The translations under genes and the position numbers were made by a program. From Acidimicrobiia bacterium (GTDB lineage: Bacteria > Actinomycetota > Acidimicrobiia > Spongiisociales > UBA5794): a stretch of DNA of 64,000 bases. The stretch is taken from positions 70,409 through 134,408 of the forward strand of contig JAUIIM010000001.1 of assembly GCA_030431785.1 (NCBI GenBank). Direction: 5' to 3'. The notes under the pieces are model-generated. The model had not been told where the DNA came from. It saw nothing but the letters and a program-made list of their open reading frames with translations, and ran no database searches. Of the stretch, positions 513 to 23,588 are shown in pieces. Within the stretch, counting starts at the first letter, position 1; the number at the start of each line of letters is the position of its first letter.

Positions 513-534
513 ACTAGGTAACTAGTTACCTAGT
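513..534. promoter_or_regulatory. 22-bp perfect AT-rich palindrome ACTAGGTAACTAGTTACCTAGT in a divergent promoter region
   Basis: Read directly from the sequence. Self-complementary over 22 bp and contains three CTAG tetramers. Lies between the Pr6Pr gene start (438, -) and the surface protein start (587, +) in otherwise GC-rich DNA. Confidence 0.5.
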
Positions 535-586
535 GCGCGAATCAATGACTTTCAAGGGGTTCGCGGGGTGCGACGAAGGGACGGGT

Positions 587-3094
587 ATGACACACCGCAA
601 CACCTTTCACAAGACCATCCGCATCACCCTCGCTCTGGCGCTCCTCGCGGCGAGCTTCGCCGGAGTCGTCGTCTCGTCGACCCCTGCACAGGCCACACCG
701 GTCGACTGCAGTCGGGGCACGAACCTCTCGTTCGAGCAGCCGGTCATCGACTCCGACTGGGACATCGTCTCCACACCAGGCTGGTCCTCGACCGATACCG
801 GTATCGAGATCTGGCAGTCCGGATTCAACGGCGCCGTGGCACCCGACGGCGACCAGTTGGCAGAACTCCAAGGAAACAACACTGCGGCGAACTGGCAGGA
901 CATCTCGACCTTGCCGGGGGACGTCCTTGCCTGGAGCTTCCATCACCGAGGCCGGGTGAACGATGACACGGTTCGCGTCGACATCGGATCGACGACGACC
1001 CAGACGAACGAGGGTCAGTTCACGACGGGTACGACGGCGTTCATCAAGTACGCCGGTACCTACACGGTTCCGTCGGGGCAGACGACAACACGTTTCGTCC
1101 TGGACCCGGTCGACACCGGCAGTGTCGGAAACCTCGTCGACCTGGTGGAGTTCGCCTTCACCTGCGACATCGACATCACCACGACATTCGACGGCTACAC
1201 CGACCTTGACACGTCCGGCAACGTGACGGTCGGCGACACCTTCGACTTTTCGTATCTCGTCACGAATCTTGGAACGGCGACGCTCGATTCGGTGGGCGTC
1301 ACCGACCTTCTCGGGGAGTCGGTCGTCTGCAACGACACGCTTCTCGTCCCGGACGCAAGCACGACGTGTTCCACGACGCACTCGATCACGCAACCCGAGA
1401 TCGATGCGGGTGCGGTCGTGAGCGATGCGACAGCTTCTGGTACCGACGCAGCGGGCGTGACCGTGACTTCTTCCGATACAGAATCCGTTCCCGTAGAGCA
1501 CGACCCGGCCATCACACTCGAGAAGTCCGGAACGAGCGACAACGCCGTCGTGGCACCGGCAGACAGGACGGACGTCGGAGACGTCATCGACTACACCTTC
1601 TCCGTCACCAACACGGGCAACGTGACGCTGACAGCCATAGCGATCGACGACCCGCCTCTCGCAGCGGTGACCTGCCCTCCCGACGATGTCGCACCCGGTG
1701 CAACCGTCGAGTGCACCGGAAGCTATGGCGTCACCCAGGGCGACATCGAAGCGGGCTCTGTATACAACGAAGCGTCGGCTTCCGCGACCCCACCGGTGGG
1801 TGACGCAGTCGTCACCACCGCTGACACCACGGTTGATCTGGTGCAGGTGACCTCGATCGACATCACGAAGTCCACGGCGACGGTTTCGTACGACACCGTC
1901 GGTGAGGTCGTGACCTATGAACTCACACTCACCAACACCGGCAACGTTGCATTGAGCGACGTGGTCGTATCGGATGCCAACGCAGACGACGGAAGCATCG
2001 AGTGCACTCCGGCCGCACCGCTGTCGCTCGCACCCGGATCGAGCGCGACCTGCACCGCCGAGCACACCGTCACCCAGGACGATCTCGATAGCGGTTCCAT
2101 CTCCAACACGGCGTCTGTCGATGCGGTCGGGACCGCAAACGACGAGCCTGCAACGGCGGCTTCGAACGAGGTGATCGTTGATGCCATCCAGACTCCGGGT
2201 CTTGATGTCACGAAGACCGTGACGAGCGAGCCGCTCGGCGACGGTCGATTCAGCCTCGAATACGTGATCACGGTCACCAACACCGGGAATGTCACTGCGA
2301 CCTCCGTCGCGGTGACCGATGATCTCGACGCAGTGTTCGGACCCGATGGCTATGCGATCGAGACCATGTCCTCCACGGTCTTTACGGTCAATCCGGCATA
2401 TGACGGGTCGACGGACACCGAGATGCTCGTCGGTTCCGACACCCTCGCACCCGGTGCGTCCGGTGCGATCTACCTCAGCGTGACAACCGAACCAACCGCG
2501 AATCCCGGTCCGTACGTGAACAACGTCTCGGTCCTCGCCGACGGTGCCGGTGAACCGACGAGCGCCGTGGCCGATGTCGGCGCAGAGCTCGACGTGTCCT
2601 TCGATCTGCGAATCGAGAAGACATCGTCCGTGTCGGTTGCCCCGGGTGACGATGCCACGTGGACGATCACGGTCATCAACGAAGGGCCATCCGCAACCTT
2701 TGGTCCGATCACCGTGACGGACACCCTCACTGACGACCTCTCGTACGTCGGTTTCAACGGCACCGGTTGGGCATGCACACACAGCCATGGTGTCGTGACC
2801 TGCACCCGCGACGGTGCGCTCGCTTCCGGCGAGTCGACGAGTCTCGAGATCGTCACCACAGTGAATGCGGCGATCGGCGAGACCGTCGAGAACCGGGCCT
2901 CGGTCGTCGCTTCGGATGGTGAGAACGAGACGGATCCATCGAACAACGCGGCCGTGGCCTCCATCAACGTGGACTCGTTGCCCATTACCGGGATCGACAC
3001 GGCAGACTTCGCAGCGATCGCCCTTGCAAGTCTTGTCTTCGGATTGATGCTGGTGGGCCTGACGTCCCGTCGCCGTCCGAGAACCGCTCGCTGA
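587..3094 (+). CDS. Secreted, sortase-anchored surface protein: N-terminal jelly-roll/lectin-like module, five Ig-like DUF7507/DUF11-type repeats, LPITG sorting signal
   Basis: ORF 533..3094. Start moved to ATG 587 (MTHRNTFHKTIRITLALALLAASFAGVVVSSTPAQA signal peptide). Repeats carry VGDxxxYxFxVTNTGNVTL...TQxDIDxGSxxNxAxA signatures. Last repeat is DUF11-like (DLRIEKT...INEGPS...DPSNNAA). C-terminus is LPITG (2978-2992) plus a hydrophobic helix plus RRRPRTAR. Confidence 0.85.
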   Translation: MTHRNTFHKTIRITLALALLAASFAGVVVSSTPAQATPVDCSRGTNLSFEQPVIDSDWDIVSTPGWSSTDTGIEIWQSGFNGAVAPDGDQLAELQGNNTAANWQDISTLPGDVLAWSFHHRGRVNDDTVRVDIGSTTTQTNEGQFTTGTTAFIKYAGTYTVPSGQTTTRFVLDPVDTGSVGNLVDLVEFAFTCDIDITTTFDGYTDLDTSGNVTVGDTFDFSYLVTNLGTATLDSVGVTDLLGESVVCNDTLLVPDASTTCSTTHSITQPEIDAGAVVSDATASGTDAAGVTVTSSDTESVPVEHDPAITLEKSGTSDNAVVAPADRTDVGDVIDYTFSVTNTGNVTLTAIAIDDPPLAAVTCPPDDVAPGATVECTGSYGVTQGDIEAGSVYNEASASATPPVGDAVVTTADTTVDLVQVTSIDITKSTATVSYDTVGEVVTYELTLTNTGNVALSDVVVSDANADDGSIECTPAAPLSLAPGSSATCTAEHTVTQDDLDSGSISNTASVDAVGTANDEPATAASNEVIVDAIQTPGLDVTKTVTSEPLGDGRFSLEYVITVTNTGNVTATSVAVTDDLDAVFGPDGYAIETMSSTVFTVNPAYDGSTDTEMLVGSDTLAPGASGAIYLSVTTEPTANPGPYVNNVSVLADGAGEPTSAVADVGAELDVSFDLRIEKTSSVSVAPGDDATWTITVINEGPSATFGPITVTDTLTDDLSYVGFNGTGWACTHSHGVVTCTRDGALASGESTSLEIVTTVNAAIGETVENRASVVASDGENETDPSNNAAVASINVDSLPITGIDTADFAAIALASLVFGLMLVGLTSRRRPRTAR

Positions 3095-3095
3095 G

Positions 3096-3665
3096 TCAGC
3101 CGAAGGTCACCACGGTGTCGGCGTCGTCCTGTAGATCGCGTGCGTTCGGTCCGTAGCTCTCGGCGAACGCGTGGAGCGCCTCTCGCCCGACGGTGAGCCT
3201 TTGCGAGAACACAGTCCACTCGATTCCGGAGGTGTATGGCGGCGTCGTCAGCGACCCGAGGTAGCGGAAGGCGGGAGACGTCGTCGGTACGATCCGTTCC
3301 AGGTGGGCCATCGTTGGGGAGTCAGTGGCCCGTCCGATGAATTGATCGATCGGGTGCTCTCCCTCATCGACGTCGAACATCACCCCGAGCACGGCAAGCT
3401 TCCCCTCTGCCGACTCATGCACCAGATGCGTCTCCAAGTCGGCGCGGTGACCATCGATGGTGTGCTCGGACGGGGCGTGGGAATGGATTTCGATGAGGGT
3501 GTACTGGAGCCCGTCGAGATCCAGCACACCGCCGGGCTCGGCAAGCGCCGACACGGTGGTGCCACGGTCGACGAGCCGGATGGTGCTCATGTGGTGATAA
3601 GAGATCGAGCCGCGGGCCGTGTGCCGACCGGACGTCCGGGAGTTCAGGGCGATGGGTGACTGCAT
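3096..3665 (-). CDS. Alpha-class carbonic anhydrase, short form without signal peptide
   Basis: 189-aa ORF with IHSHAPSEH...HLVH (alpha-CA three-His zinc pattern), GKLAVLGVMF and YLGSLTTPP...IEW. It starts at the conserved QSPI motif (MQSPIAL). It lies 37 nt downstream of the SLH-LRR gene on the same strand. Confidence 0.7.
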   Translation of the reverse strand: MQSPIALNSRTSGRHTARGSISYHHMSTIRLVDRGTTVSALAEPGGVLDLDGLQYTLIEIHSHAPSEHTIDGHRADLETHLVHESAEGKLAVLGVMFDVDEGEHPIDQFIGRATDSPTMAHLERIVPTTSPAFRYLGSLTTPPYTSGIEWTVFSQRLTVGREALHAFAESYGPNARDLQDDADTVVTFG

Positions 3666-3702: not shown

Positions 3703-5856
3703 TCACGGACACCCGTCGTTCCAGCCCGGAGCGTTCGCATCCAGCCAGGTCGCATACGCACCGTTGGGTGTGGTGAGGCACCCGGACTGACCGAACAGGA
3801 TCAAGGTCGCGAGGTTCGGGAGGGTCATGAAGCCTCCCGGGACCTCTCCTGCGAGCCCGTTGTTGGCGAGGTTGACCAGTACCAGCGTGTCGACGCTGGC
3901 GATCGACGCAGGGATGGCGCCTGTCAGCGCGTTGCCGTTGACCATGAGGGTGATGAGGCCGGGAGGATTGCCGAGTTCGGTGGGTATCGGCCCCGTGAGC
4001 TGGTTGTTGCTGACGATCAGATACTCGAGTGTGGTGAGATCCCCCAGATCGGCCGGGATGGACCCGTCGAGCATGTTGTCGGCAAGGTGGATCGTGTCGA
4101 TCGCGGGGAGATCGCCCAGCTCGACCGGTATGCCCCCAGTGAGTTCGTTTCCGTAGAGATACAGCTGTTCGAGCGTCGTCAGCGAACCGATCTGTGTCGG
4201 GATTGCTCCGTCGAGATCATTGCTCGCGAGATTGAAGTACACGATGGAAGAGAGTCCACCGATCTCGGTGGGGATGGAGCCGTCGAGTTCGTTGGCGCGG
4301 AGGTTCAGCGTCTCCAGGTTCTCCAAGCCGAAGAGTTCCGGTGGAAGCTCCCCGAGGAAGTTGTTCTCTTGGCCGAAGAGGGTTTCGAGCGATGTCAGCT
4401 GACCGATGGCCGCCGGGATCAGTCCGGTGAACTCGTTGCCGTTGACTCGAAGTGTCACGAGGTCCTCGAGGTTGCCGATGTCCTCCGAGATCACACTGGT
4501 GAAGCCGTTGTCGTCGAGGCCCAGATACCTGAGGGCGGTCAGATCCCACAGCTCACTCGGGAGCACCCCGTCGAGATCGTTGTCGCTGAGGCTCAGGTGG
4601 GTGAGCTGTGTCAGCTGCCCGATCTCTGCCGGGATCGAACCGGTGAGGGCGTTGGATCGTAGATCCAGGGAACTCAGAGCAACGAGGTTCCCGATCTCGG
4701 TCGGGATGGAGCCGAGGAGGTTGTTCTCCGAGAAATTGATGGTGTCGAGCTCCGTCAGGTCGCCGAGGCTCGCAGGGATCAGTCCCGTCAGGTCGTTGGC
4801 GCTGAGGTCGAGCGCTTCCAGATCGAGGAGATTGCCGATGTCCTCGGAGATGACGCTCTCGAGAAGGTTGTGGGACAGGTCGAGTGACTCGAGCCCCACC
4901 AGCGACCACACTTCCGACGGAATCGTGCCGGAGATGCTGTTGCCCCGGAGCTCGAGCTGTGTCATGTGAGCGAGATCCTCGATCTCGCTCGGGAGTGGCC
5001 CGTCGAGGCCTTTGAACAGGAGAACGAGCGACGACACGTTCGATCCGTCGCACCCGACTCCGGTCCACACGCACGGGTTCGGATGTGCCTTCCAGTGGTC
5101 CACGTCGGTCCACGCTGGTCCGTTCGTCGAGCTGTACAACGCGAGAAGTGCTTCGCATTCGGAGGGCTCGACGCCTGTCTGTACGTTGCAGTCGTACAGC
5201 TGCGGCTGTCGGTTGGTGCCGGGCTCCCCGACCAGCGGCTCACCAGCGAACCGCCATAGGAAGGTTGCGAACTGTGCCCGAGTGACAGGATCGTGGGGAG
5301 AGAACGTGGTGGGACTGGTTCCCTGCGTAAGGCCGTGTTCCACCATCCAGAGAACCGCGTTCGTGAACCACTCGCCGAGCGGAACATCGTCGAACCCCGG
5401 GTCCTTTCCCCCCGGGATCGGTTCGCCGGCGTAGCGGTACAGGAACGTTGCGGCTTGGGCGCGCGTCAGTAGGTCGTCTGGGCCGAAGTGTGTCTTGCTG
5501 ATGCCTTGCGTGATCGCATGAAGGAGAAGCCATCCGACGGCGTCTTCGTAGTACACCCCGCTCGGGATGTCGACGAACCAGTGGTCGACACCGAGGGGCT
5601 CGCCGCCGAACCGATGGAGGAATGCCGCGACCTGGGCTCGCGTCACCGGGTCGTCGGGGGAGAAGGTGGTCGGCGACGTCCCGGATGTGATCCCCTGATC
5701 GACCATCCAGTCGACGGCATCGGCGTAGTACGCCCCCGGATCGACGTCGTCGAATCCGACCGCTGGGCTGACTGCGAAGATACCGAGGAACAGTGCAACC
5801 GCTGCGGCGATGGCGAGAAACCGCCGTCGGAACGGCGCGCTGAGCAGACTCGTCAT
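3703..5856 (-). CDS. Secreted protein with three SLH-type cell-wall-binding domains, an LRRNT-like Cys cap and about 17 plant-type leucine-rich repeats
   Basis: ORF 3703..5916. Likely start is ATG at 5856 (MTSLLSAPFRRRFLAIAAAVALFLGIFAVSPAVG). Three copies of FxDVxxGxYYxDAVxWxxxxGITxGTSxTxFxPxxxxTRAQxAxFLxR. Then ECEALLALYSSTNGPAWTD..W....PCVWTGVGCDG. Then 24-residue units of LxxLxLxxNxLxGxIPxxxGxL, and a C-terminal Cys-containing cap ending NDGCP. Confidence 0.85.
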   Translation of the reverse strand: MTSLLSAPFRRRFLAIAAAVALFLGIFAVSPAVGFDDVDPGAYYADAVDWMVDQGITSGTSPTTFSPDDPVTRAQVAAFLHRFGGEPLGVDHWFVDIPSGVYYEDAVGWLLLHAITQGISKTHFGPDDLLTRAQAATFLYRYAGEPIPGGKDPGFDDVPLGEWFTNAVLWMVEHGLTQGTSPTTFSPHDPVTRAQFATFLWRFAGEPLVGEPGTNRQPQLYDCNVQTGVEPSECEALLALYSSTNGPAWTDVDHWKAHPNPCVWTGVGCDGSNVSSLVLLFKGLDGPLPSEIEDLAHMTQLELRGNSISGTIPSEVWSLVGLESLDLSHNLLESVISEDIGNLLDLEALDLSANDLTGLIPASLGDLTELDTINFSENNLLGSIPTEIGNLVALSSLDLRSNALTGSIPAEIGQLTQLTHLSLSDNDLDGVLPSELWDLTALRYLGLDDNGFTSVISEDIGNLEDLVTLRVNGNEFTGLIPAAIGQLTSLETLFGQENNFLGELPPELFGLENLETLNLRANELDGSIPTEIGGLSSIVYFNLASNDLDGAIPTQIGSLTTLEQLYLYGNELTGGIPVELGDLPAIDTIHLADNMLDGSIPADLGDLTTLEYLIVSNNQLTGPIPTELGNPPGLITLMVNGNALTGAIPASIASVDTLVLVNLANNGLAGEVPGGFMTLPNLATLILFGQSGCLTTPNGAYATWLDANAPGWNDGCP

Positions 5857-5997
5857 GGTGACCCGATCCCTTCGGTGAAGCCTCGTTGCACAGCGTACGC
5901 GAGTCTCCATCGTCATGGTGGCCTCGATCGCATCTCGGACCGGGCGATAGCCTTGGCGGTCGCGCTACTCAAGTATCGAGGGGACGGTGCCGATTCA

Positions 5998-7074
5998 ATG
6001 CGTATGGATCTAGGAGTGGCGACTCGACCGGGTCGCACACGTTCGTTGTCGCTTCCGCGCGTTGCGCTGGGGTGCGCTGTCGCGCTCGCGGCAATGTTCG
6101 TTGTCCTCGCCGTCGGTCAACGTCCCGCCTTGGCCGTCTCCAGCCAAACGGGGTTCGAGCACTGCCTGCTCGACAAGATCAACGAGGCCAGAGCCGATCA
6201 CGGTGTTCCCCCCGTAGAGATGGCGTATGACCGGATTCCCCAGGTCCGGGACTGGTCAGAGTGGATGCGCTTCAACGAGTTCCGTCACATGACGAACGCC
6301 GAACGGAATCCGATCCTCCCGAGCACGTGGTGGACCTGGGCGGAGAACATCGCGATGTATGGGAGCCAACACATCGGTTGTGGCGTCATCCACAACATGT
6401 TCATGAACTCGTCGGGGCACCGGGCCAACATCCTCAACTCGAAGCAGGAGTATGTAGCTCTTGGTGCCTACGTGGACGGTTCCGGTTGGTGGGTGACCCA
6501 GTTGTTCTTCTCCGCTCACGGCTATGTACCGGAATGCGACGGAGCGTTCTGTGACGACGACGAGTCCCCGTTCGAACCGGACATCAACACAATCGCCGCT
6601 GAGGGTGTGACCAACGGCTGCAACTCCATCGGGACGCGCTTTTGTCCCGAGGAGGGTGTCACCCGTGCCGAGATGGCCTCGTTCATCGTTCGGTTGCTCG
6701 GATTGACGGATCGTGGATCGGTGGATTTCACTGATGACGACCATTCCGTGCACGAGGCTGATATCGAGCGGCTGGCAACGGCGGGTATCACGCTGGGCTG
6801 CGATGTGAGCGGCCCGAGATTCTGTCCGGACCGGATCGTCCCACGTGAGCAGATGGCAGCCTTCTTGGCGCGAGCGCTCGGATTGACGGATCGTGGATCG
6901 GTGGATTTCACCGATGACGATGGGTCGCCGTTCGAAGCAGACATCGAGCGGGTTGCCACGGCCGGGATCTCCATGGGTTGCGACGCCAGCGGCCCGCGCT
7001 TCTGTCCGACGGCACCGGTCACCCGTGAACAGATGGCCGGCTTCCTGGCTCGATCACTCTCGCTCCTCGACTGA
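5998..7074 (+). CDS. Secreted CAP/SCP (PR-1-like, YkwD-type) domain protein with three C-terminal SLH-like repeats
   Basis: ORF 5488..7074, trimmed to ATG 5998 (MRMDLGVATRPGRTRSLSLPRVALGCAVALAAMFVVLAVGQRPALA). CAP-like core: INEARADHGVPP...SSGHRANILN..YVALGAY. Three repeats of FxDDDxSxxExDIxxxAxxGITxGCxxxGxRFCPxxxVTREQMAxFLxRxLxL. Confidence 0.8.
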   Translation: MRMDLGVATRPGRTRSLSLPRVALGCAVALAAMFVVLAVGQRPALAVSSQTGFEHCLLDKINEARADHGVPPVEMAYDRIPQVRDWSEWMRFNEFRHMTNAERNPILPSTWWTWAENIAMYGSQHIGCGVIHNMFMNSSGHRANILNSKQEYVALGAYVDGSGWWVTQLFFSAHGYVPECDGAFCDDDESPFEPDINTIAAEGVTNGCNSIGTRFCPEEGVTRAEMASFIVRLLGLTDRGSVDFTDDDHSVHEADIERLATAGITLGCDVSGPRFCPDRIVPREQMAAFLARALGLTDRGSVDFTDDDGSPFEADIERVATAGISMGCDASGPRFCPTAPVTREQMAGFLARSLSLLD

Positions 7075-10302: not shown

Positions 10303-10935
10303 CTACACGATGCGGCGGTCGGACGCCCAGCGTGCCAGCTCGTGCCGATTCGACAGTTGTAGCTTGCGCAGCACGTTCGAGACGTGCGTCTCCACGGTCT
10401 TGATGGAGATGTCGAGTCTGCGCGCCACCTGTTTGTAGGCGTAGCCCCGAGCGATCTGTCGGAGGACTTCCTGCTCCCTCGGTGTCAGTTGATCGAGCTC
10501 CGGATCGGACTCCACGGGAACAGCTCGTGCAAACGCATCGAGGACGAACCCGGCGAGCGATGGGGAGAACACGGCGTCGCCCCCTGCGACCCGCTCGATC
10601 GCATCCGCGAGTTCGTCGGGAGCGATCGACTTCGTCACGTAGCCGCGTGCCCCCGCTCGGATCATCGCGATCACATCTTCGGGTGCGTCGGAGACGGAGA
10701 GCGCCAGGAAGCGGATTCCCGGGTGTGTCGAGAGCACGTTGCTCACAACCGCAACGCCGCCACCGCCCGGCATGTGGACATCGACGAGCACGACATCGGG
10801 CTGCGCGGAGCGGATTGAGTCAACGGCTTCGTCCACATCCTGTGACGTCCCGGCGATCTCGAATCCATCCTCGAGCTCGGACTGGACGCCGGAGAGGAAG
10901 ATCCTGTGGTCGTCGACCAGGTACACGGACGTCAC
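10303..10935 (-). CDS. NarL/LuxR-family response regulator (LiaR-like)
   Basis: 210 aa. The receiver domain has DVVLVDVHMPGGGG and the C-terminal LuxR HTH has LTPREQEVLRQIARGYAYKQVARRLDISIKTVETHVSNVLRKL. A 4-nt overlap with the kinase gene. Confidence 0.9.
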   Translation of the reverse strand: MTSVYLVDDHRIFLSGVQSELEDGFEIAGTSQDVDEAVDSIRSAQPDVVLVDVHMPGGGGVAVVSNVLSTHPGIRFLALSVSDAPEDVIAMIRAGARGYVTKSIAPDELADAIERVAGGDAVFSPSLAGFVLDAFARAVPVESDPELDQLTPREQEVLRQIARGYAYKQVARRLDISIKTVETHVSNVLRKLQLSNRHELARWASDRRIV

Positions 10936-12167
10936 AGTGTTCTCGCTTTCATGGTGAGGTGGACCTCGGTGCCGGCTCCGACGTCCGAATCGATCGTCAC
11001 GGTACCTCCATGGCGCAGCATCCGGCCGTTGATCGACTCAGCGATCCCTCTGCGGTCGCTGTCGACTGTTGCCGGGTCGAAGCCGCGGCCCTGGTCGCTG
11101 ATGAAGACTTCAACACCATCGGTCGTGACTTCTGCGAACACGGAGACACGATCGGCACCGCTGTGCTCCGCCGCGTTCATCATGGCTTCCGTGGCGGCAG
11201 CTACGAGTGCCACCTGCTGATCCTCCGGAAGGTCGGCCTCGCCTACTACCACCACGGACACCGGCACGTCATGTACTTCCTCCGCCTTCGTAGCGGCCGC
11301 TTGTAGCGCCCCCACGAGGGTCTCGGTGTCGCCAGCAGCCTCGTCGAACAACCACGCTCGCAGGTCGCGCTCTTGTGCGCGGGCGAGGGTCACCATCTTC
11401 TTGGGGTCATCGGACCGTTGGATCAGAGCAAGGGTCTGGAGTACTGAGTCGTGCAGGTGCGCCGCCATCTCGGCCTTCTCCTCCGATCGGATCCGTGCCC
11501 GTCGTTCGGATCGCAGGTCCTCGACGAGGGACCAGATCCAGGGTCCTGCGACCAGGAAGAATCCTGCAAGCGCTGCAACGATCGAGATGGCGAGCACTCC
11601 TATGCCTGCCAGGCGATCCAAGGAGGAGAGGGCGACAGCAAATCCGGCGACCATCATGACGACACCGCCGACGACGATCCACCACGACCGTTGTCGACCG
11701 TCGACCCCCGCGATCCCGGCGATTGACTTCTCGTAGTTGATCCCGGAAGTCTCGATGGCGATCGCAAGTCCGAAGATCACAAGGGTCGCTGGCCACACGA
11801 GGAGGCCGAGCCAGAGCCCGGACATCTGAAGGACCAGCATGACAGCGATGAACATGAGGAGGAGCCCGATCTGCTCCCTTGCGCCGAGGGGTTGCGCCGG
11901 TGTCGTCGTGCCGTCGTCGGGTGGGACGAGGAGAGCGAAGAGCACGTACAGGATCACACCGACGAACCCTGCGAGAGCAAGGCAAAGGAAGGCCGCCCGC
12001 ACATAGATGGGTGAGAGCCCGAGTCGTGCACCGATCCCGCCGGCGACGCCTGCGACCATCCGCTCGGAGCGCGAACGACGGAATGGCCAGGACAAGCGAG
12101 TGAATGGGGATGTCGGCTGGGTCACGGTGTGCTCACGGGTTCGAGTCTCGAGTGGTTGCTGGTGCAT
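10932..12167 (-). CDS. PspC-domain-containing sensor histidine kinase (LiaS-like, HisKA_3 type)
   Basis: ORF 10932..12305. Likely start is ATG 12167 (MHQQPLE). PspC domain: RSRSERMVAGVAGGIGARLGLSPIYVRAAFLCLALAGFVG. Multiple TM segments. H-box AAHLHDSVLQTLALIQ. C-terminal HATPase (NAAEHSGA...DQGRGF...GTEVHL). Confidence 0.85.
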   Translation of the reverse strand: MHQQPLETRTREHTVTQPTSPFTRLSWPFRRSRSERMVAGVAGGIGARLGLSPIYVRAAFLCLALAGFVGVILYVLFALLVPPDDGTTTPAQPLGAREQIGLLLMFIAVMLVLQMSGLWLGLLVWPATLVIFGLAIAIETSGINYEKSIAGIAGVDGRQRSWWIVVGGVVMMVAGFAVALSSLDRLAGIGVLAISIVAALAGFFLVAGPWIWSLVEDLRSERRARIRSEEKAEMAAHLHDSVLQTLALIQRSDDPKKMVTLARAQERDLRAWLFDEAAGDTETLVGALQAAATKAEEVHDVPVSVVVVGEADLPEDQQVALVAAATEAMMNAAEHSGADRVSVFAEVTTDGVEVFISDQGRGFDPATVDSDRRGIAESINGRMLRHGGTVTIDSDVGAGTEVHLTMKARTL

Positions 12168-12286
12168 GGTGTCATACGTCCACTCACCGGGCAATCGGGA
12201 ACGACCCTGACGCGACCCTGATATCTCGGGTATGCACAGGAACATTCCCGATACCAACGTGTAGCGAAGTCGGGCACGATGGTGAC

Positions 12287-13552
12287 ATGACAAACAACAC
12301 AACACACGACCCGAGCGCCCATGGCCGCTTCGAGCGGTCCCGTAGCGAGCGTGTGATCGCAGGTGTGGCTGGCGGAATCGCCCAGCGCCTCGAGATCAAC
12401 GCTTGGTGGATACGCCTCGGGTTCATCATCTTCGCCTTGGTAGGTGCGGGCATCCTCGCCTACGCCGCACTCTGGATATTCCTCCCGAATCCGGAAGAGC
12501 GCTACTCCGCTGCAACTCGGTGGTTCATGGAGCTCGACCTGACCGATAACGGCACGCTCATCGGCGTGATCCTCATGGGAGGGGCTGCCGTCGTGATCGC
12601 CTTCCAAGTGTTCGAGTTCTCCGGATGGGCGGTACTCGCGGCGATCATGTTCGCCGCAGGCATCATCCTCTTCCGGGGTGAGCCCCGGGTGCTCCCGCCA
12701 GAGCCAGACTCCATACTCGCATCCGCGGACGGGTCGACCGATGGCGGTGGGGTCACCGAACCTGACGACGACCACGAGTCCTCCGGACGGGACGGTGATG
12801 GTCCTGATGACGGAGAGGCTGCACCTGCTCCGTTCACGGCGACAGCGGACCGGCCGGTGCCACAGTCACAGGATCCCGATGGTGCGAACGTAGCGCACCG
12901 AACCGAGGCGGTGCGAACGTCGCCACCTTCGTACGTCGGGCGGCTCACGATCGCGTCGGTTCTGATCGTGCTCTCGGGCATGGGTCTGCTTGAAGCATCG
13001 GGTATTGAGGTTGCGGGATCGGAGAACCTCTTCGATCCGATCCACTACGCAGCAACGGCGCTGGGCATCGTCGGATTCGGTCTGTTGGTGTCAGCGTTCG
13101 TCGGGAGGGCTCGATGGCTCATAGCGATCGGTCTGCTTCTCGTTCCGGTGACGATCCTCGCTGCAGTCGTCCCATCTTCGTTCGCGTGGTCGTTCGGCGA
13201 GGAACGCTATGCCCCTCGATCGGTCGACTCCATCGAAGAGGTATACGAGTTGGGATTCGGCGAGCTGACGGTCGACCTGACGAACTTGTCCGAGGCGGAA
13301 CTCGAAGCGATCGGTCTCGTCCGGCTGAAGCTCGGCGCGGGTGAGGCTGTTGTGAAGCTGCCCGATGACGTCGGTGTGCGGATCATCGGAGAGATCGGAG
13401 CCGGAGCATCGGACAGCCACGCCGGCGTCGGGTACGGGGACTACGCAGGATTCGGAATCGACATCGACGAACGAATCGGGCCCTGGCCGACCGTCATCAC
13501 GGTCGAGGGCGAAGTCGGCTTCGGTGTATTGACCATCGAGATCGAGGAGTAG
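12287..13552 (+). CDS. PspC-domain membrane protein with LiaF-like C-terminal domain
   Basis: ORF 12104..13552, trimmed to ATG 12287 (MTNNTTHDP). RSRSERVIAGVAGGIAQRLEINAWWIRLGFIIFALVGAGILAYAALWIFLP is a PspC domain. The C-terminus has GELTVDLTNL...GAGEAVVKLPDDVGVRI. Divergent from the kinase gene. Confidence 0.8.
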   Translation: MTNNTTHDPSAHGRFERSRSERVIAGVAGGIAQRLEINAWWIRLGFIIFALVGAGILAYAALWIFLPNPEERYSAATRWFMELDLTDNGTLIGVILMGGAAVVIAFQVFEFSGWAVLAAIMFAAGIILFRGEPRVLPPEPDSILASADGSTDGGGVTEPDDDHESSGRDGDGPDDGEAAPAPFTATADRPVPQSQDPDGANVAHRTEAVRTSPPSYVGRLTIASVLIVLSGMGLLEASGIEVAGSENLFDPIHYAATALGIVGFGLLVSAFVGRARWLIAIGLLLVPVTILAAVVPSSFAWSFGEERYAPRSVDSIEEVYELGFGELTVDLTNLSEAELEAIGLVRLKLGAGEAVVKLPDDVGVRIIGEIGAGASDSHAGVGYGDYAGFGIDIDERIGPWPTVITVEGEVGFGVLTIEIEE

Positions 13553-22013: not shown

Positions 22014-23588
22014 GTGCACACTGTTCGCCGTCCGAGAACCGTCGTCGTTGCAGTCTTCGTCCTTGCCCTGATCGCTGTCGGTCTTGGCCAGCGATCCGCG
22101 AGTGCGGGTGCGTTCGTCGATGTCGATCCGGAGGACTACTTCGCCGATGCGGTGGACTGGATGGTCGATCAGGGGATCACGCAAGGCACGTCTCCGTCGA
22201 CCTTCTCTCCCGACGATCCTGTGACCCGGGCGCAGGCTGCCGCCTTTCTCCATCGGTTCGGCTTCGAGTGGGACGGCGTCGATCATCCGTTCACCGATGT
22301 CCCATCCGAGTCGTACTACGAGGATGCCGTCGGCTGGCTGATGATGCGGATGATCACGCAAGGCGTGTCGGCGACCGAGTTCGGTCCGGATCTGATACTG
22401 AGCCGCGCCCAGATCGCGACGTTCCTCTACCGATACGCCGGGGAGCCGGAGGTATCGGCCTCGTCCGGGTTCTCCGATGTCCCTGACGGGATGTGGTTCT
22501 CGGACCCGATCGCCTGGATGGTCGAGCAGGGGATCACGCAAGGCACCTCAGCCTCGACCTTCTCACCTGAGCAGACAGTCACACGTGCCCAGTTCGCCAC
22601 CTTCCTGTGGAGGTATGTCGGCGAGCCTGCAGTCGGTGAGGTGATGCAGCGCGAACGGCAGCCGGTCCTGTACGACTGCGAACTCCAGACGGTGCTCTAC
22701 GGGGAAGAATGCACCGCAATCGTCGCACTCCACCAGCACACGGACGGGCGATACTGGACCAACACGGGCGGTTGGCTGAAGACTCCGAACCCATGCGGGT
22801 GGCTGGGTCTCGATTGCGAAGGACTGACGGTCACGGCCATACGACTCCCCGACAACAACCTCGTGGGGACACTTCCCGACGACATCACGATGCTGACCTC
22901 GCTACGGGTCCTTGAGCTGAACTCGAATTCGATCTCCGGGCCGATCCCATCGTCGGACTTCGACAATCTGGATTCGCTGGAAGAGCTGGATCTCCAACAC
23001 AACGAGCTGACCGGATCGATACCTTCGGGGATCGACCAGTTGACTTCACTACAGTTCCTCACTCTCAATTCGAACAGCCTGAACGGCTCGTTTCCCGCCG
23101 GGATCACGTCACTCGTCGAGCTGGTCACCGTTCGTCTCGACAACAACCGACTCACCGGCAGCTTGCCGTCGGACCTCGGGTCCTTGACCAAGGTCCAACG
23201 ATTCGACGTGTCGAGCAACCTCTTGTCAGGGTCCGTCCCGACATCGATCGGCTCGATGGCCGACCTCCAATTCTTGCGACTCCAGGACAACGGTTTCACC
23301 GGGACTCTCCCGTCGGAGCTTGGCTCGCTTTCGAACCTGCTCCACCTCGTGATCTCGGGCAACGACTTCGCTGGGTCGATCCCATCCACCTTCAGCGACC
23401 TGTCGGCGGCCACCTGGATCGACATTTCGTACAACCAGCTGGAGGGTGCGGTTCCCCCATCAATGCAATCACTGCCTGACCTGGCAACGTTCACCCTCCG
23501 CGGGAACGGATGCTTCACGGCGGTTGACGGAATCCTGACGCTCTGGCTGGACGGCATGGATCCACTCTGGGATGACGGCTGCCCGTGA
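22014..23588 (+). CDS. Paralog of 3703..5856: three SLH-type domains, an LRRNT-like cap and about 9-10 plant-type LRRs
   Basis: 524 aa with a GTG start. Signal anchor VVVAVFVLALIAVGLGQRSASA. SLH units share long identical stretches with the paralog (YFADAVDWMVDQGITQGTSPSTFSPDDPVTRAQAAAFLHRFG). ECTAIVALHQHTDGRYWTN..W...NPCGWLGLDCEG cap. C-terminal WDDGCP. Confidence 0.85.
   Translation: MHTVRRPRTVVVAVFVLALIAVGLGQRSASAGAFVDVDPEDYFADAVDWMVDQGITQGTSPSTFSPDDPVTRAQAAAFLHRFGFEWDGVDHPFTDVPSESYYEDAVGWLMMRMITQGVSATEFGPDLILSRAQIATFLYRYAGEPEVSASSGFSDVPDGMWFSDPIAWMVEQGITQGTSASTFSPEQTVTRAQFATFLWRYVGEPAVGEVMQRERQPVLYDCELQTVLYGEECTAIVALHQHTDGRYWTNTGGWLKTPNPCGWLGLDCEGLTVTAIRLPDNNLVGTLPDDITMLTSLRVLELNSNSISGPIPSSDFDNLDSLEELDLQHNELTGSIPSGIDQLTSLQFLTLNSNSLNGSFPAGITSLVELVTVRLDNNRLTGSLPSDLGSLTKVQRFDVSSNLLSGSVPTSIGSMADLQFLRLQDNGFTGTLPSELGSLSNLLHLVISGNDFAGSIPSTFSDLSAATWIDISYNQLEGAVPPSMQSLPDLATFTLRGNGCFTAVDGILTLWLDGMDPLWDDGCP

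What the first reader, a model, noticed from the sequence alone, without database searches (positions are those of the whole stretch)
3703..5856. Plant-type LRR ectodomain with an LRRNT-like Cys cap, fused to three SLH cell-wall anchors
Seen in sequence: after a signal anchor and three SLH-type units comes ECEALLALYSSTNGPAWTDVDHWKAHPNPCVWTGVGCDG. Then I count 17 uninterrupted 24-residue repeats of LxxLxLxxNxLxGxIPxxxGxLxx, plus a Cys-pair C-terminal cap (CLTTP...NDGCP). Established knowledge: the 24-residue LxGxIP repeat class and the CxWxGVxC N-cap define the plant-specific LRR class of receptor kinases and PGIPs. Typical bacterial LRRs (internalin, YopM, SDS22-like) have shorter, different repeats. 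Inference: this is a wall-tethered, receptor-like binding surface, possibly acquired from or convergent with eukaryotic LRRs. The ligand is unknown.
Basis: partly seen in the sequence, partly recalled or inferred. Interest (0 to 1): 0.65.

Follow-up and report, generated by a model that had tools for sequence, protein, structure and literature searches.

The report
Wall-anchored bacterial plant-type LRR protein
An uncultured actinobacterium (class Acidimicrobiia) encodes a secreted protein that probably hooks onto its cell wall and displays a 17-repeat binding solenoid of the type best known from plant receptors; it belongs to a widespread but uncharacterised bacterial family and is not a recent acquisition from plants.

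Summary
ORF 3703..5916 (minus strand) encodes a signal peptide and three SLH wall-binding units. These are followed by a Cys-rich N-cap that passes Pfam LRRNT_2, 17 uninterrupted 24-residue repeats with the plant-specific (PS) LRR consensus, and a Cys-pair C-cap. The best sequence and fold matches among solved structures are plant receptor-kinase ectodomains such as FLS2, GSO1 and ERL2.

The idea that the gene was acquired from eukaryotes is not supported as a recent event.
- Codon usage is native.
- A 48%-identical paralog lies in the same window, and a third probably lies on the same contig.
- The 4-Cys N-cap is far closer to many bacterial caps than to plant caps.
- The C-cap (GQSGCLT…WL…WNDGC) occurred only in hits without a plant-type kinase and has no solved relative.

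The same cassette (N-cap, PS-LRR, C-cap) occurs in other bacterial proteins behind different anchors: SLH, CWB2, lipoprotein-like signals, or a Ser/Thr kinase plus a membrane segment.

Within Acidimicrobiia the genes are accessory: two relatives lack them at the conserved syntenic sites.

The most likely role is a wall-tethered ligand-binding or adhesin surface. The ligand is unknown. PS-LRRs in bacteria were already the subject of a 2013 paper. Verdict: a new member of a known kind, of modest interest.

The parts
3703..5916 (-). Whole ORF, 737 aa including the stop codon at 3703-3705. The likelier start is the ATG at 5856 (codon 21), giving 717 aa.
   Evidence: ORF list. Family members align from about codon 21 onward. 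Both ATGs sit in the same caccATGacg context, without a strong ribosome-binding site.
5755..5856 (-). Export signal, aa 21-54: MTSLLSAPFRRRFLAIAAAVALFLGIFAVSPAVG|F. It most likely uses the Sec pathway. It contains an RRRFL stretch that resembles a twin-arginine (Tat) motif.
   Evidence: Hydropathy shows a single N-terminal hydrophobic core at aa 32-50. Family members carry ordinary signal-like N-termini without the RR motif. No signal-peptide predictor was available.
5227..5754 (-). Three S-layer-homology (SLH) units, aa 55-230. Predicted wall anchor.
   Evidence: Pfam SLH E=7e-32 with three stretches. Each unit carries a TRAQ motif. AF2 predicts a helix pair per unit at pLDDT 62-85.
5197..5226 (-). 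Short linker, aa 231-240 (GEPGTNRQPQ), conserved in the closest family members.
   Evidence: Alignment A1.
5038..5196 (-). Four-Cys N-terminal cap, aa 241-293: YDC..(9)..ECEALLALYSSTNGPAWTDVDHWKAHPNPCVWTGVGC. LRRNT_2-like.
   Evidence: Pfam LRRNT_2 22.3 bits against a cut-off of 20.7. PDB phmmer finds plant TMK3 at E=2.5e-5. Much closer to bacterial caps than to plant caps. C243 and C254 are invariant; C282 and C289 are present in 5 of 6 family members.
3814..5037 (-). 17 uninterrupted 24-residue plant-specific-class LRRs, aa 294-701. Repeats 3-7 and 8-12 are an old five-repeat block duplication.
   Evidence: Register and consensus. AF2 pLDDT above 90. Foldseek best match is ERL2 5xkn, TM 0.80 normalised to the target, rmsd 2.4 A over 490 columns. 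Block duplication permutation p about 4e-4. DNA repeats are spaced at multiples of 72 nt.
3706..3813 (-). Degenerate 18th repeat plus the bacterial-type C-cap, aa 702-737: LATLILFGQSGCLTTPNGAYATWLDANAPGWNDGCP.
   Evidence: C713, W724, L725, W732 and C736 are invariant in the family. AF2 predicts a helix at 719-728. The motif appears only in hits without a plant-type C-terminal kinase. No PDB relative at E<=10. No Pfam or NCBIfam model covers it.
22014..23588 (+). Paralog, 524 aa: 3x SLH, the same linker, a 4-Cys N-cap, about 8-9 PS-LRRs and the same C-cap.
   Evidence: Pfam. It equals P0005 at 99.8% identity and is about 48% identical to the query. Alignment A1.
5998..7074 (+). Divergently transcribed neighbour: a secreted CAP-domain protein with Cys-containing SLH-like repeats. 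It shares the same insertion with the LRR gene.
   Evidence: Pfam CAP and SLH. Absent, like the LRR gene, from the syntenic site in a relative.

Best explanation
This is a secreted, cell-wall-tethered binding protein of an uncultured Acidimicrobiia bacterium (phylum Actinomycetota).

Proposed mechanism:
1. An N-terminal signal exports the protein.
2. The three SLH units fold into one module that attaches non-covalently to a secondary cell-wall polymer.
3. A short linker projects a rigid, disulfide-capped solenoid of 17 plant-specific-class leucine-rich repeats.
4. The variable concave face of the solenoid binds a still unknown ligand, most likely a protein or peptide.

The protein has no membrane segment beyond the signal and no signalling domain. 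It therefore acts as an adhesin or capture surface, not as a signalling receptor.

In evolutionary terms it belongs to a bacterial cassette family: a 4-Cys N-cap, PS-LRRs and a GQxGCLT..WL..W(N/D)xxC C-cap. Different bacterial proteins combine this cassette with interchangeable anchors (SLH, CWB2, lipoprotein-like signals, Ser/Thr kinase plus membrane segment). The cassette shares ancestry with plant receptor ectodomains at the level of repeat class and N-cap. The gene itself is long resident in this genome, has multiplied there, and is an accessory gene within the class.

Shown: domain composition, repeat class, fold similarity, native codon usage, paralogy, cap affinities and the synteny gaps.
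Inferred: wall attachment, disulfides, ligand binding on the concave face, and the type of ligand.
For: Architecture: Pfam finds SLH x3, LRRNT_2 and LRR. There are 17 in-register repeats with the PS consensus. A single N-terminal hydrophobic core is present, and the mature protein has pI 4.05 and six Cys confined to the caps.

Fold: the AF2 LRR region has pLDDT above 90. All top 50 Foldseek PDB hits are plant LRR receptor ectodomains. phmmer gives FLS2 at 1e-159, against 2e-51 for the best solved bacterial LRR, Leptospira LIC11098.

Long resident in this genome: synonymous-codon likelihood z=+0.54, rank 27 of 39 genes; GC3 is 0.80 against 0.65-0.84 for the other genes. Repeats are only 36% identical to one another in protein and at most 65% in DNA.

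Family:
- A paralog lies at 22014..23588. P0001 is linked to the paralog in two ways.
- SLH-LRR relatives P0046, P0058 and P0100 exist; a protein in the same 90%-identity cluster as P0100 is named 'S-layer homology domain-containing protein [Acidimicrobiia bacterium]'.
- Searching the last repeat plus C-cap finds 384 representative clusters at E<=1e-3, though many of these match only the repeat. At least 26 of the top 148 carry the C-cap motif.
- The same cassette is fused to CWB2, SLH, He_PIG or Pkinase.
- The N-cap scores 125-164 against bacterial caps, and a median of 48 against plant receptor-kinase caps.

Binding face: positions 2, 3, 5, 7 and 8 of the repeat are the most variable (entropy 2.79 bits, against 0.98 for framework positions). 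Aromatic residues cluster on repeats 12-15: Y560, Y586, Y588, H610, Y632.

Precedent: SLH-anchored LRR surface proteins exist in Bacillus, namely IlsA and BslL (PMC2777315).

Taxonomy: DnaB is 74-77% identical to Acidimicrobiia MAG proteins.
Against: - No experimental data exist for any member of this family.
- No ligand can be inferred from the neighbouring genes.
- Wall attachment via SLH needs a pyruvylated wall polymer and the CsaB enzyme (established knowledge from Bacillus). No csaB gene was seen among the ORFs annotated in the window, and the rest of the genome could not be examined.
- The SLH part of the model has only moderate confidence (pLDDT 62-85).
- The signal peptide was judged from hydropathy only. 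An RRRFL motif leaves Tat export possible.
- Concave and convex variable positions differ little in entropy (2.79 against 2.59 bits), so the variability argument is weak.
Confidence: 0.75

Rival explanations
1. Recent horizontal acquisition of a plant or algal receptor ectodomain, which was then fused to bacterial SLH anchors.
For: The best solved-structure matches, by sequence and by fold, are plant receptor kinases. LRRNT_2 passes Pfam's cut-off. The gene is an insertion relative to two related genomes. A 2013 paper by its title concerns plant-bacterium transfer of PS-LRRs.
Against: - Codon usage of the LRR part is even more typical of this genome than that of the SLH part.
- The nearest relatives are bacterial; named plant proteins reach only 29-40% identity, about what any two PS-LRR arrays share.
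- The N-cap is much closer to bacterial caps.
- The C-cap was seen only in hits without a plant-type kinase.
- Diverged paralogs (about 48% identity) show long residence in the genome.
- No mobile-element scars flank the gene.
Confidence: 0.04
2. Pure convergence: bacteria evolved a 24-residue LxGxIP repeat and a CxWxGxxC cap independently, with no common ancestry with plant ectodomains.
For: LRR classes are thought to have arisen several times (statement in PMC4232680). Repeat consensus is constrained by the fold. The C-caps are different.
Against: The non-repetitive N-cap independently matches the plant LRRNT_2 profile above its curated cut-off, here and in several bacterial relatives at up to 31 bits. 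It also matches the plant TMK3 cap at E=2.5e-5. Convergence in both the repeat and the cap is less parsimonious than homology.
Confidence: 0.1
3. It is a structural S-layer or envelope lattice protein. The LRR solenoid would be a building block or spacer rather than a ligand-binding surface.
For: An N-terminal SLH triad is the classic layout of S-layer proteins. The protein is very acidic (pI 4.05). Several SLH proteins cluster at this locus.
Against: Three paralogs with 8 to 17 repeats and variable concave faces look like a diversifying binding family, not a single abundant lattice protein. The same cassette is attached to a kinase or to lipoprotein-like signals elsewhere. Related Acidimicrobiia lack the gene at the syntenic site.
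Confidence: 0.08

Closest known systems
Plant LRR receptor kinase and receptor-like protein ectodomains (FLS2, GSO1, ERL1/2, MIK2, HAESA; PGIP)
   Same: The 24-residue plant-specific LRR class and a right-handed superhelical solenoid. An N-cap with helix ... W ... CxWxGVxC that passes LRRNT_2. Extracellular location and Cys-pair capping at both ends.
   Different: No transmembrane helix or kinase, and no island domain. The anchor is SLH at the N-terminus. The N-cap has four Cys in the bacterial pattern. The C-cap is unrelated to the plant GNxxLCG-type cap.
Bacterial proteins with plant-specific-class LRRs (Miyashita et al. 2013, Nat Sci 5:580; Xanthomonas XopAC/AvrAC and XopAE in NCBIfam)
   Same: PS-class repeats in a bacterial protein. 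The best NCBIfam hits are XopAE and XopAC, which match through their LRR regions.
   Different: Scores are far below those families' cut-offs (131 against 600 bits; 124 against 450). Those proteins are type III effectors delivered into plant cells, without SLH units or Cys caps. The content of the 2013 paper could not be read here; only its title and citations were seen.
Bacillus cereus IlsA and B. anthracis BslL (SLH-anchored LRR surface proteins)
   Same: Gram-positive surface proteins that combine an LRR domain with three SLH units for wall attachment. IlsA is shown to be surface-located and ligand-binding (PMC2777315). The NCBIfam NEAT-LRR model matches the SLH triad here.
   Different: In IlsA the SLH units are C-terminal and a NEAT domain is present. 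Its LRRs were not compared here. No NEAT domain and no iron-regulation signal were seen in this window.
Uncharacterised bacterial 'capped PS-LRR cassette' proteins from metagenomes (P0001, P0005, P0046, P0100, P0132, P0139, P0272 and others)
   Same: The same 4-Cys N-cap, PS-LRRs and GQxGCLT..WL..WNDGC C-cap. P0001, P0005, P0046, P0058, P0100 and P0273 also share the SLH x3 anchor, and P0251 has SLH-type units too.
   Different: Repeat number varies: 17 here, the largest array among the six aligned SLH-LRR family members. Other members use CWB2, lipoprotein-like or kinase-plus-membrane anchors, or repeat the cassette in tandem.

Membership tests
Plant-specific (PS) LRR class (Kobe & Kajava / Matsushima classification) | Repeat length of 23-25 residues, typically 24 | tested here: met
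   17 consecutive repeats of exactly 24 residues with no register shift. Class definition taken from PMC2946307.
Plant-specific (PS) LRR class (Kobe & Kajava / Matsushima classification) | Consensus LxxLxLxxNxL(t/s)GxIPxxLGxLxx | tested here: met
   Each repeat matches 9-11 of 11 defining positions. The derived consensus is LETLxLxxNxLTGxIPxEIGxLxx.
Plant-specific (PS) LRR class (Kobe & Kajava / Matsushima classification) | Structural unit of beta strand, second short beta strand and 3-10 helix, giving a twisted superhelix like the plant ectodomains | tested here: met
   The AF2 model shows a strand, a frequent second short strand and a short 5-residue helix per repeat. Foldseek top 50 are all plant LRR ectodomains, with TM 0.80 to ERL2 normalised to the target. 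This rests on a prediction, not an experiment.
Pfam LRRNT_2 (PF08263) N-terminal cap | Score at or above the curated gathering cut-off, plus the CxWxGVxC motif | tested here: met
   22.3 bits against 20.7, covering profile positions 3-41 of 41. The motif CVWTGVGC is present. The margin is small, but it is supported by a PDB hit to the TMK3 cap at E=2.5e-5 and by higher scores in relatives, up to 31 bits.
Plant LRR receptor-like kinase / receptor-like protein | C-terminal transmembrane helix, with or without a cytoplasmic kinase | tested here: not met
   No Pkinase hit. No hydrophobic segment after the signal peptide apart from the LRR core.
Plant LRR receptor-like kinase / receptor-like protein | Plant-type C-terminal cap (GNxxLCG... 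Cys pair) | tested here: not met
   The query lacks it. By strict regex, 19 of 55 kinase-bearing plant hits have it. The query's C-cap motif was found only in hits without a plant-type C-terminal kinase.
SLH-anchored cell-wall proteins | Three tandem SLH units | tested here: met
   Pfam SLH E=7e-32 with three stretches. Each unit has the TRAQ variant of the TRAE motif.
SLH-anchored cell-wall proteins | Export signal | tested here: inconclusive
   The layout n-region RRR, 17-residue hydrophobic core and AVG|F fits a signal peptide. No dedicated predictor was available, and Sec versus Tat export is undecided.
SLH-anchored cell-wall proteins | The host makes a pyruvylated secondary wall polymer (CsaB) | not testable with these tools
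   None of the 34 window ORFs scanned had a pyruvyl-transferase hit. The remaining smaller ORFs and the rest of the genome were not examined.
Internalin family (Listeria-type LRR adhesins) | 22-residue LRRs with an Ig-like inter-repeat region and an LPXTG or GW anchor | tested here: not met
   The repeat is 24 residues and of the PS class. No internalin or Ig-like domain hit was found. The anchor is SLH.
Xanthomonas XopAC / XopAE / XopL type III effectors | NCBIfam score at or above the cut-off | tested here: not met
   131, 124 and 71 bits against cut-offs of 600, 450 and 500. The matches cover the LRR region only.
Bacterial capped PS-LRR cassette (family delimited here) | 4-Cys N-cap (C..x9-15..EC..AL..LY..T.G..W...PC.W.G..C) together with the C-cap G(Q)xGCLT..WL..W(N/D)xxC | tested here: met
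   Both motifs are present. C243, C254, C713, W724, L725, W732 and C736 are invariant in alignment A1. The N-cap scores 125-164 against at least 40 bacterial caps.

The most novel reading that the evidence does not exclude
The capped plant-type LRR cassette may be an old and diverse bacterial extracellular module. It occurs behind SLH, CWB2 and lipoprotein-like anchors, and even behind a Ser/Thr kinase plus membrane segment (P0272, in effect an inverted bacterial LRR receptor kinase). On this reading, bacteria rather than plants would be the evolutionary source of the N-cap plus PS-LRR ectodomain of plant receptor kinases. The 'plant-specific' class would be misnamed, and the direction of transfer implied by that name would be reversed.
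Probability: 0.15. Interest if true: 0.7.

Novelty: new member of a known kind. Interest (0 to 1): 0.3.

Why it matters
On its own this is one more uncharacterised surface protein. Taken with its relatives, it shows that the 'plant-specific' LRR plus LRRNT_2-like cap is a common bacterial surface module with its own C-cap and interchangeable wall anchors. That bears on two questions.

First, where the plant receptor ectodomain came from. The bacterial family supplies an outgroup, or a possible donor, for a properly rooted phylogeny.

Second, how uncultured aquatic Acidimicrobiia interact with their surroundings. A multi-copy, length-variable, accessory family of wall-displayed binding proteins is what one expects of adhesins or capture proteins under diversifying pressure.

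Practically, the C-cap has no Pfam or NCBIfam model and no solved relative, so it could be turned into a new domain model.

Tried and rejected
- Exact-sequence look-ups of the query, of ino1, of P0001 and of P0005 all returned 'not on record'. The source contig therefore could not be fetched directly.
- The genome-collection scan found only SLH-level relatives, not LRR orthologs. L001 is a different protein that ends in three SLH units.
- A word-indexed homology search with the N-cap alone returned nothing and cost one of three searches. The question was answered instead by pairwise scoring of caps extracted from proteins already fetched.
- The Miyashita 2013 paper is not held in the library. 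Only its title and its citations in other papers could be verified.
- Cluster look-ups gave a taxon name for one relative only.
- No tRNA or Rfam RNA is present in the window.
- No promoter-like site lies near the gene, and no convincing terminator. The only minus-strand terminator-like hit lies inside the ORF.
- No direct or inverted repeats flank either SLH-LRR insertion, so a mobile-element origin is not indicated.
- Rejected: recent repeat amplification. Repeats are at most 65% identical in DNA.
- Rejected: pseudogene or annotation artefact. The ORF is intact, GC3 is 0.80 and the codon usage is native.
- Rejected: membership of the internalin or Xop effector families.
Full report
**1. What is there**

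The finding sits on a single ORF, 3703..5916 on the minus strand, 737 aa. Both ATGs have the same caccATGacg context. Related proteins align only from about codon 21 onward, so 5856 is the likelier start.

From that start the protein reads MTSLLSAPFRRRFLAIAAAVALFLGIFAVSPAVG|FDD. That is a basic n-region, a 17-residue hydrophobic core and a small-residue cleavage-like site. No other membrane-like segment occurs outside the LRR core.

Pfam finds:
- Three SLH units (E=7e-32), within aa 55-230.
- LRRNT_2 at aa 252-290, with 22.3 bits against a gathering score of 20.7.
- Very strong LRR models.

Printed in a fixed 24-residue register from aa 294, the sequence gives 17 repeats without a single insertion or deletion. 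A degenerate 18th repeat follows and runs into CLTTP...NDGCP. Every repeat matches 9-11 of the 11 defining positions of the plant-specific consensus LxxLxLxxNxL(t/s)GxIPxxLGxLxx (consensus as given in PMC2946307). The mature protein is acidic (pI 4.05). Its only six cysteines lie in the two caps.

**2. Repeat class and fold**

phmmer against all solved structures ranks plant receptor-kinase ectodomains first: FLS2 at 1e-159, GSO1 at 3e-130, then MIK2, ERL1, PEPR1, RGFR, BRI1 and others. The best solved bacterial LRR protein, Leptospira LIC11098, reaches only 2e-51.

An AlphaFold2 model built on a six-sequence family alignment has mean pLDDT 82, and above 90 through the solenoid. All of the top 50 Foldseek PDB matches are plant LRR ectodomains. 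The best is ERL2 (5xkn), with TM 0.80 normalised to the target and rmsd 2.4 A over 490 columns.

The N-cap alone finds only the plant TMK3 (E=2.5e-5) and TMK1 caps among solved structures.

**3. Is it foreign?**

No compositional sign of foreign origin was found.
- GC3 is 0.80, inside the 0.65-0.84 range of the other genes.
- In a leave-one-out synonymous-codon likelihood the gene ranks 27th of 39, z=+0.54. The LRR part is even more typical of the genome than the SLH part.
- The 17 repeats are old: mean 36% protein identity and at most 65% DNA identity between any two.
- The array grew in part by an ancient five-repeat block duplication. Repeats 3-7 resemble repeats 8-12 at variable positions, identity 0.31 against a background of about 0.13, permutation p about 4e-4.

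**4. Relatives**

The best database hit is a bacterial SLH-LRR protein, P0001, at 47% identity. Named plant proteins follow at 29-40% identity, which is roughly what any two long PS-LRR arrays share.

P0005 is encoded in this same window at 22014..23588 (99.8% identity; Pfam SLH plus LRR). It is a 524-aa paralog with the same layout and about 48% identity to the query.

P0001 is probably a third paralog on the same contig.

Further SLH-LRR relatives exist: P0046, P0058 and P0100. A protein in the same 90%-identity cluster as P0100 is annotated 'S-layer homology domain-containing protein [Acidimicrobiia bacterium]'.

The alignment of these six proteins shows a conserved SLH triad, a conserved linker, four N-cap cysteines, a variable number of repeats and a conserved C-cap, G(Q)xGCLT..WL..W(N/D)xxC.

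**5. The caps tell bacterial and plant proteins apart**

In the 120 best hits, the Cys-bearing start of the cap helix (EC.AL..LY) and the C-cap motif occur only in proteins without a kinase. Kinase-bearing plant hits instead carry GNxxLCG-type C-caps.

I scored the query N-cap against 158 caps extracted from all fetched proteins. Bacterial four-Cys caps scored 125-164. Plant-type receptor-kinase caps had a median of 48 and a maximum of 73.

The C-cap has no relative among solved structures even at E<=10. No Pfam or NCBIfam model covers it.

An exhaustive phmmer search with the last repeat plus C-cap against 1.84 billion cluster representatives found 384 proteins at E<=1e-3, though many of these match only the repeat. 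At least 26 of the top 148 carry the C-cap motif.

Inspection and Pfam scans of these proteins show the same cassette behind different anchors:
- CWB2 repeats (P0132, P0147, P0157).
- SLH units (P0273, P0251).
- Lipoprotein-like signals, judged from the N-terminal sequences only (P0134, P0139, P0151).
- He_PIG domains (P0127).
- In P0272, an N-terminal Ser/Thr kinase and a membrane segment.

Three large non-plant LRR hits sit among ordinary bacterial genes. P0022's contig is 3.6 Mb. P0048 also occurs on a contig longer than 1 Mb, but the place actually read is a 58-kb contig.

The PS-LRR plus LRRNT_2-like cap is therefore a widespread bacterial surface module.

**6. Organism and locus**

DnaB, encoded in the window, is 74-77% identical to proteins of Acidimicrobiia MAGs.

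Related Acidimicrobiia contigs show a conserved gene backbone. One contig (L008) carries carbonic anhydrase, ino1 and PadR next to one another. Both L008 and L009 carry pantoate transferase, S6, SSB, S18, L9 and dnaB in that order. In L008 carbonic anhydrase abuts ino1, and in both contigs L9 abuts dnaB.

In the window, the SLH-LRR gene and a divergent CAP-SLH gene are wedged between carbonic anhydrase and ino1. The SLH-LRR paralog is wedged between L9 and dnaB.

The family is thus accessory and patchy within the class, not vertically universal. No repeats or mobile-element scars flank either insertion.

The neighbourhood is rich in envelope proteins. Upstream lies a DUF11/DUF7507 protein ending in LPITG, a hydrophobic stretch and a basic tail.

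**7. Mechanism**

The most likely mechanism has four steps:
1. Export through the N-terminal signal.
2. Non-covalent attachment of the SLH triad to a secondary wall polymer. This rests on established knowledge from Bacillus SLH proteins; here it is inferred.
3. Display of a rigid, disulfide-capped solenoid.
4. Binding of a partner on the concave face.

Concave-face positions 2, 3, 5, 7 and 8 are the most variable across repeats (entropy 2.79 bits against 0.98 for framework positions), though only slightly more variable than the convex variable positions (2.59 bits). Repeats 12-15 carry a cluster of aromatic residues there.

With no membrane segment and no enzymatic or signalling domain, the protein is an adhesin or capture surface rather than a signalling receptor. 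Bacillus cereus IlsA (NEAT-LRR-SLH) and B. anthracis BslL (LRR-SLH) are experimental or annotated precedents for SLH-anchored LRR surface proteins (PMC2777315).

The ligand remains unknown.

**8. Novelty and score**

PS-class LRRs in bacteria were the subject of a 2013 paper. Its title and citations were verified, but its content could not be read here. NCBI already names a close relative as an SLH-domain protein.

This gene is a new member of a known kind. What is mildly new is the delimitation of a bacterial cap pair, the interchangeable anchors, and the accessory and expanding behaviour in Acidimicrobiia.

The most novel reading not excluded is that this bacterial module is the evolutionary source of plant receptor ectodomains. 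Nothing here decides the direction of transfer.

Interest: 0.3.

Noticed in passing
window 22014..23588 (+): A second SLH x3 + 4-Cys N-cap + PS-LRR + C-cap gene (524 aa, about 48% identical to the query). It is inserted between ribosomal protein L9 and dnaB, which are adjacent in two related Acidimicrobiia contigs.
   Followed up: yes
window 5998..7074 (+): A divergently transcribed secreted protein with a CAP (cysteine-rich secretory protein) domain and three Cys-containing SLH-like repeats (...GVTNGCN..RFCP...TRAEMA...). It shares the same insertion with the LRR gene, between carbonic anhydrase and ino1.
   Followed up: partly
window 533..3094 (+): An 853-aa DUF7507/DUF11 repeat protein ending in LPITG, a hydrophobic stretch and RRRPR. 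This is a sortase-type sorting signal, so the organism appears to use both sortase and SLH anchoring.
   Followed up: partly
window 3096..3665 (-): An alpha-type ('eukaryotic-type') carbonic anhydrase of 189 aa with no obvious signal peptide. It starts 37 nt downstream of the LRR gene's stop. A 191-aa counterpart, 50% identical, lies next to ino1 in a related MAG (L008).
   Followed up: partly
window 5817..5831 (-), aa 29-33 of the ORF: The signal peptide contains FRRRFL, which resembles the twin-arginine (Tat) motif RRxFL. The motif is not conserved in the paralogs. No Tat predictor was available.
   Followed up: no
P0272 (metagenome protein, 721 aa): A bacterial protein with an N-terminal Ser/Thr kinase (Pfam Pkinase, E=4e-42), one membrane segment, then the same 4-Cys N-cap, PS-LRRs and C-cap. 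In effect it is an inverted bacterial counterpart of a plant LRR receptor kinase.
   Followed up: partly
P0132, P0147, P0157 (metagenome proteins): The same capped PS-LRR cassette fused to one to three CWB2 cell-wall-binding repeats instead of SLH. This shows anchor swapping around a constant binding module.
   Followed up: partly
window 4318..5037 region (-), repeats 3-12: Repeats 3-7 and 8-12 resemble each other at variable positions (for example SVISEDIGNL in both repeats 3 and 8). This indicates an old five-repeat block duplication.
   Followed up: yes
L001 4255..6666: In another Actinomycetota MAG, a large secreted protein ends in three SLH units that are 46% identical to those of the query. 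SLH anchoring is therefore used by unrelated proteins in this group.
   Followed up: no
window 10303..12305 (-): A LuxR-type response regulator and a histidine kinase with a PspC domain. The pair is conserved in a related contig (L009) and looks like an envelope-stress two-component pair.
   Followed up: no
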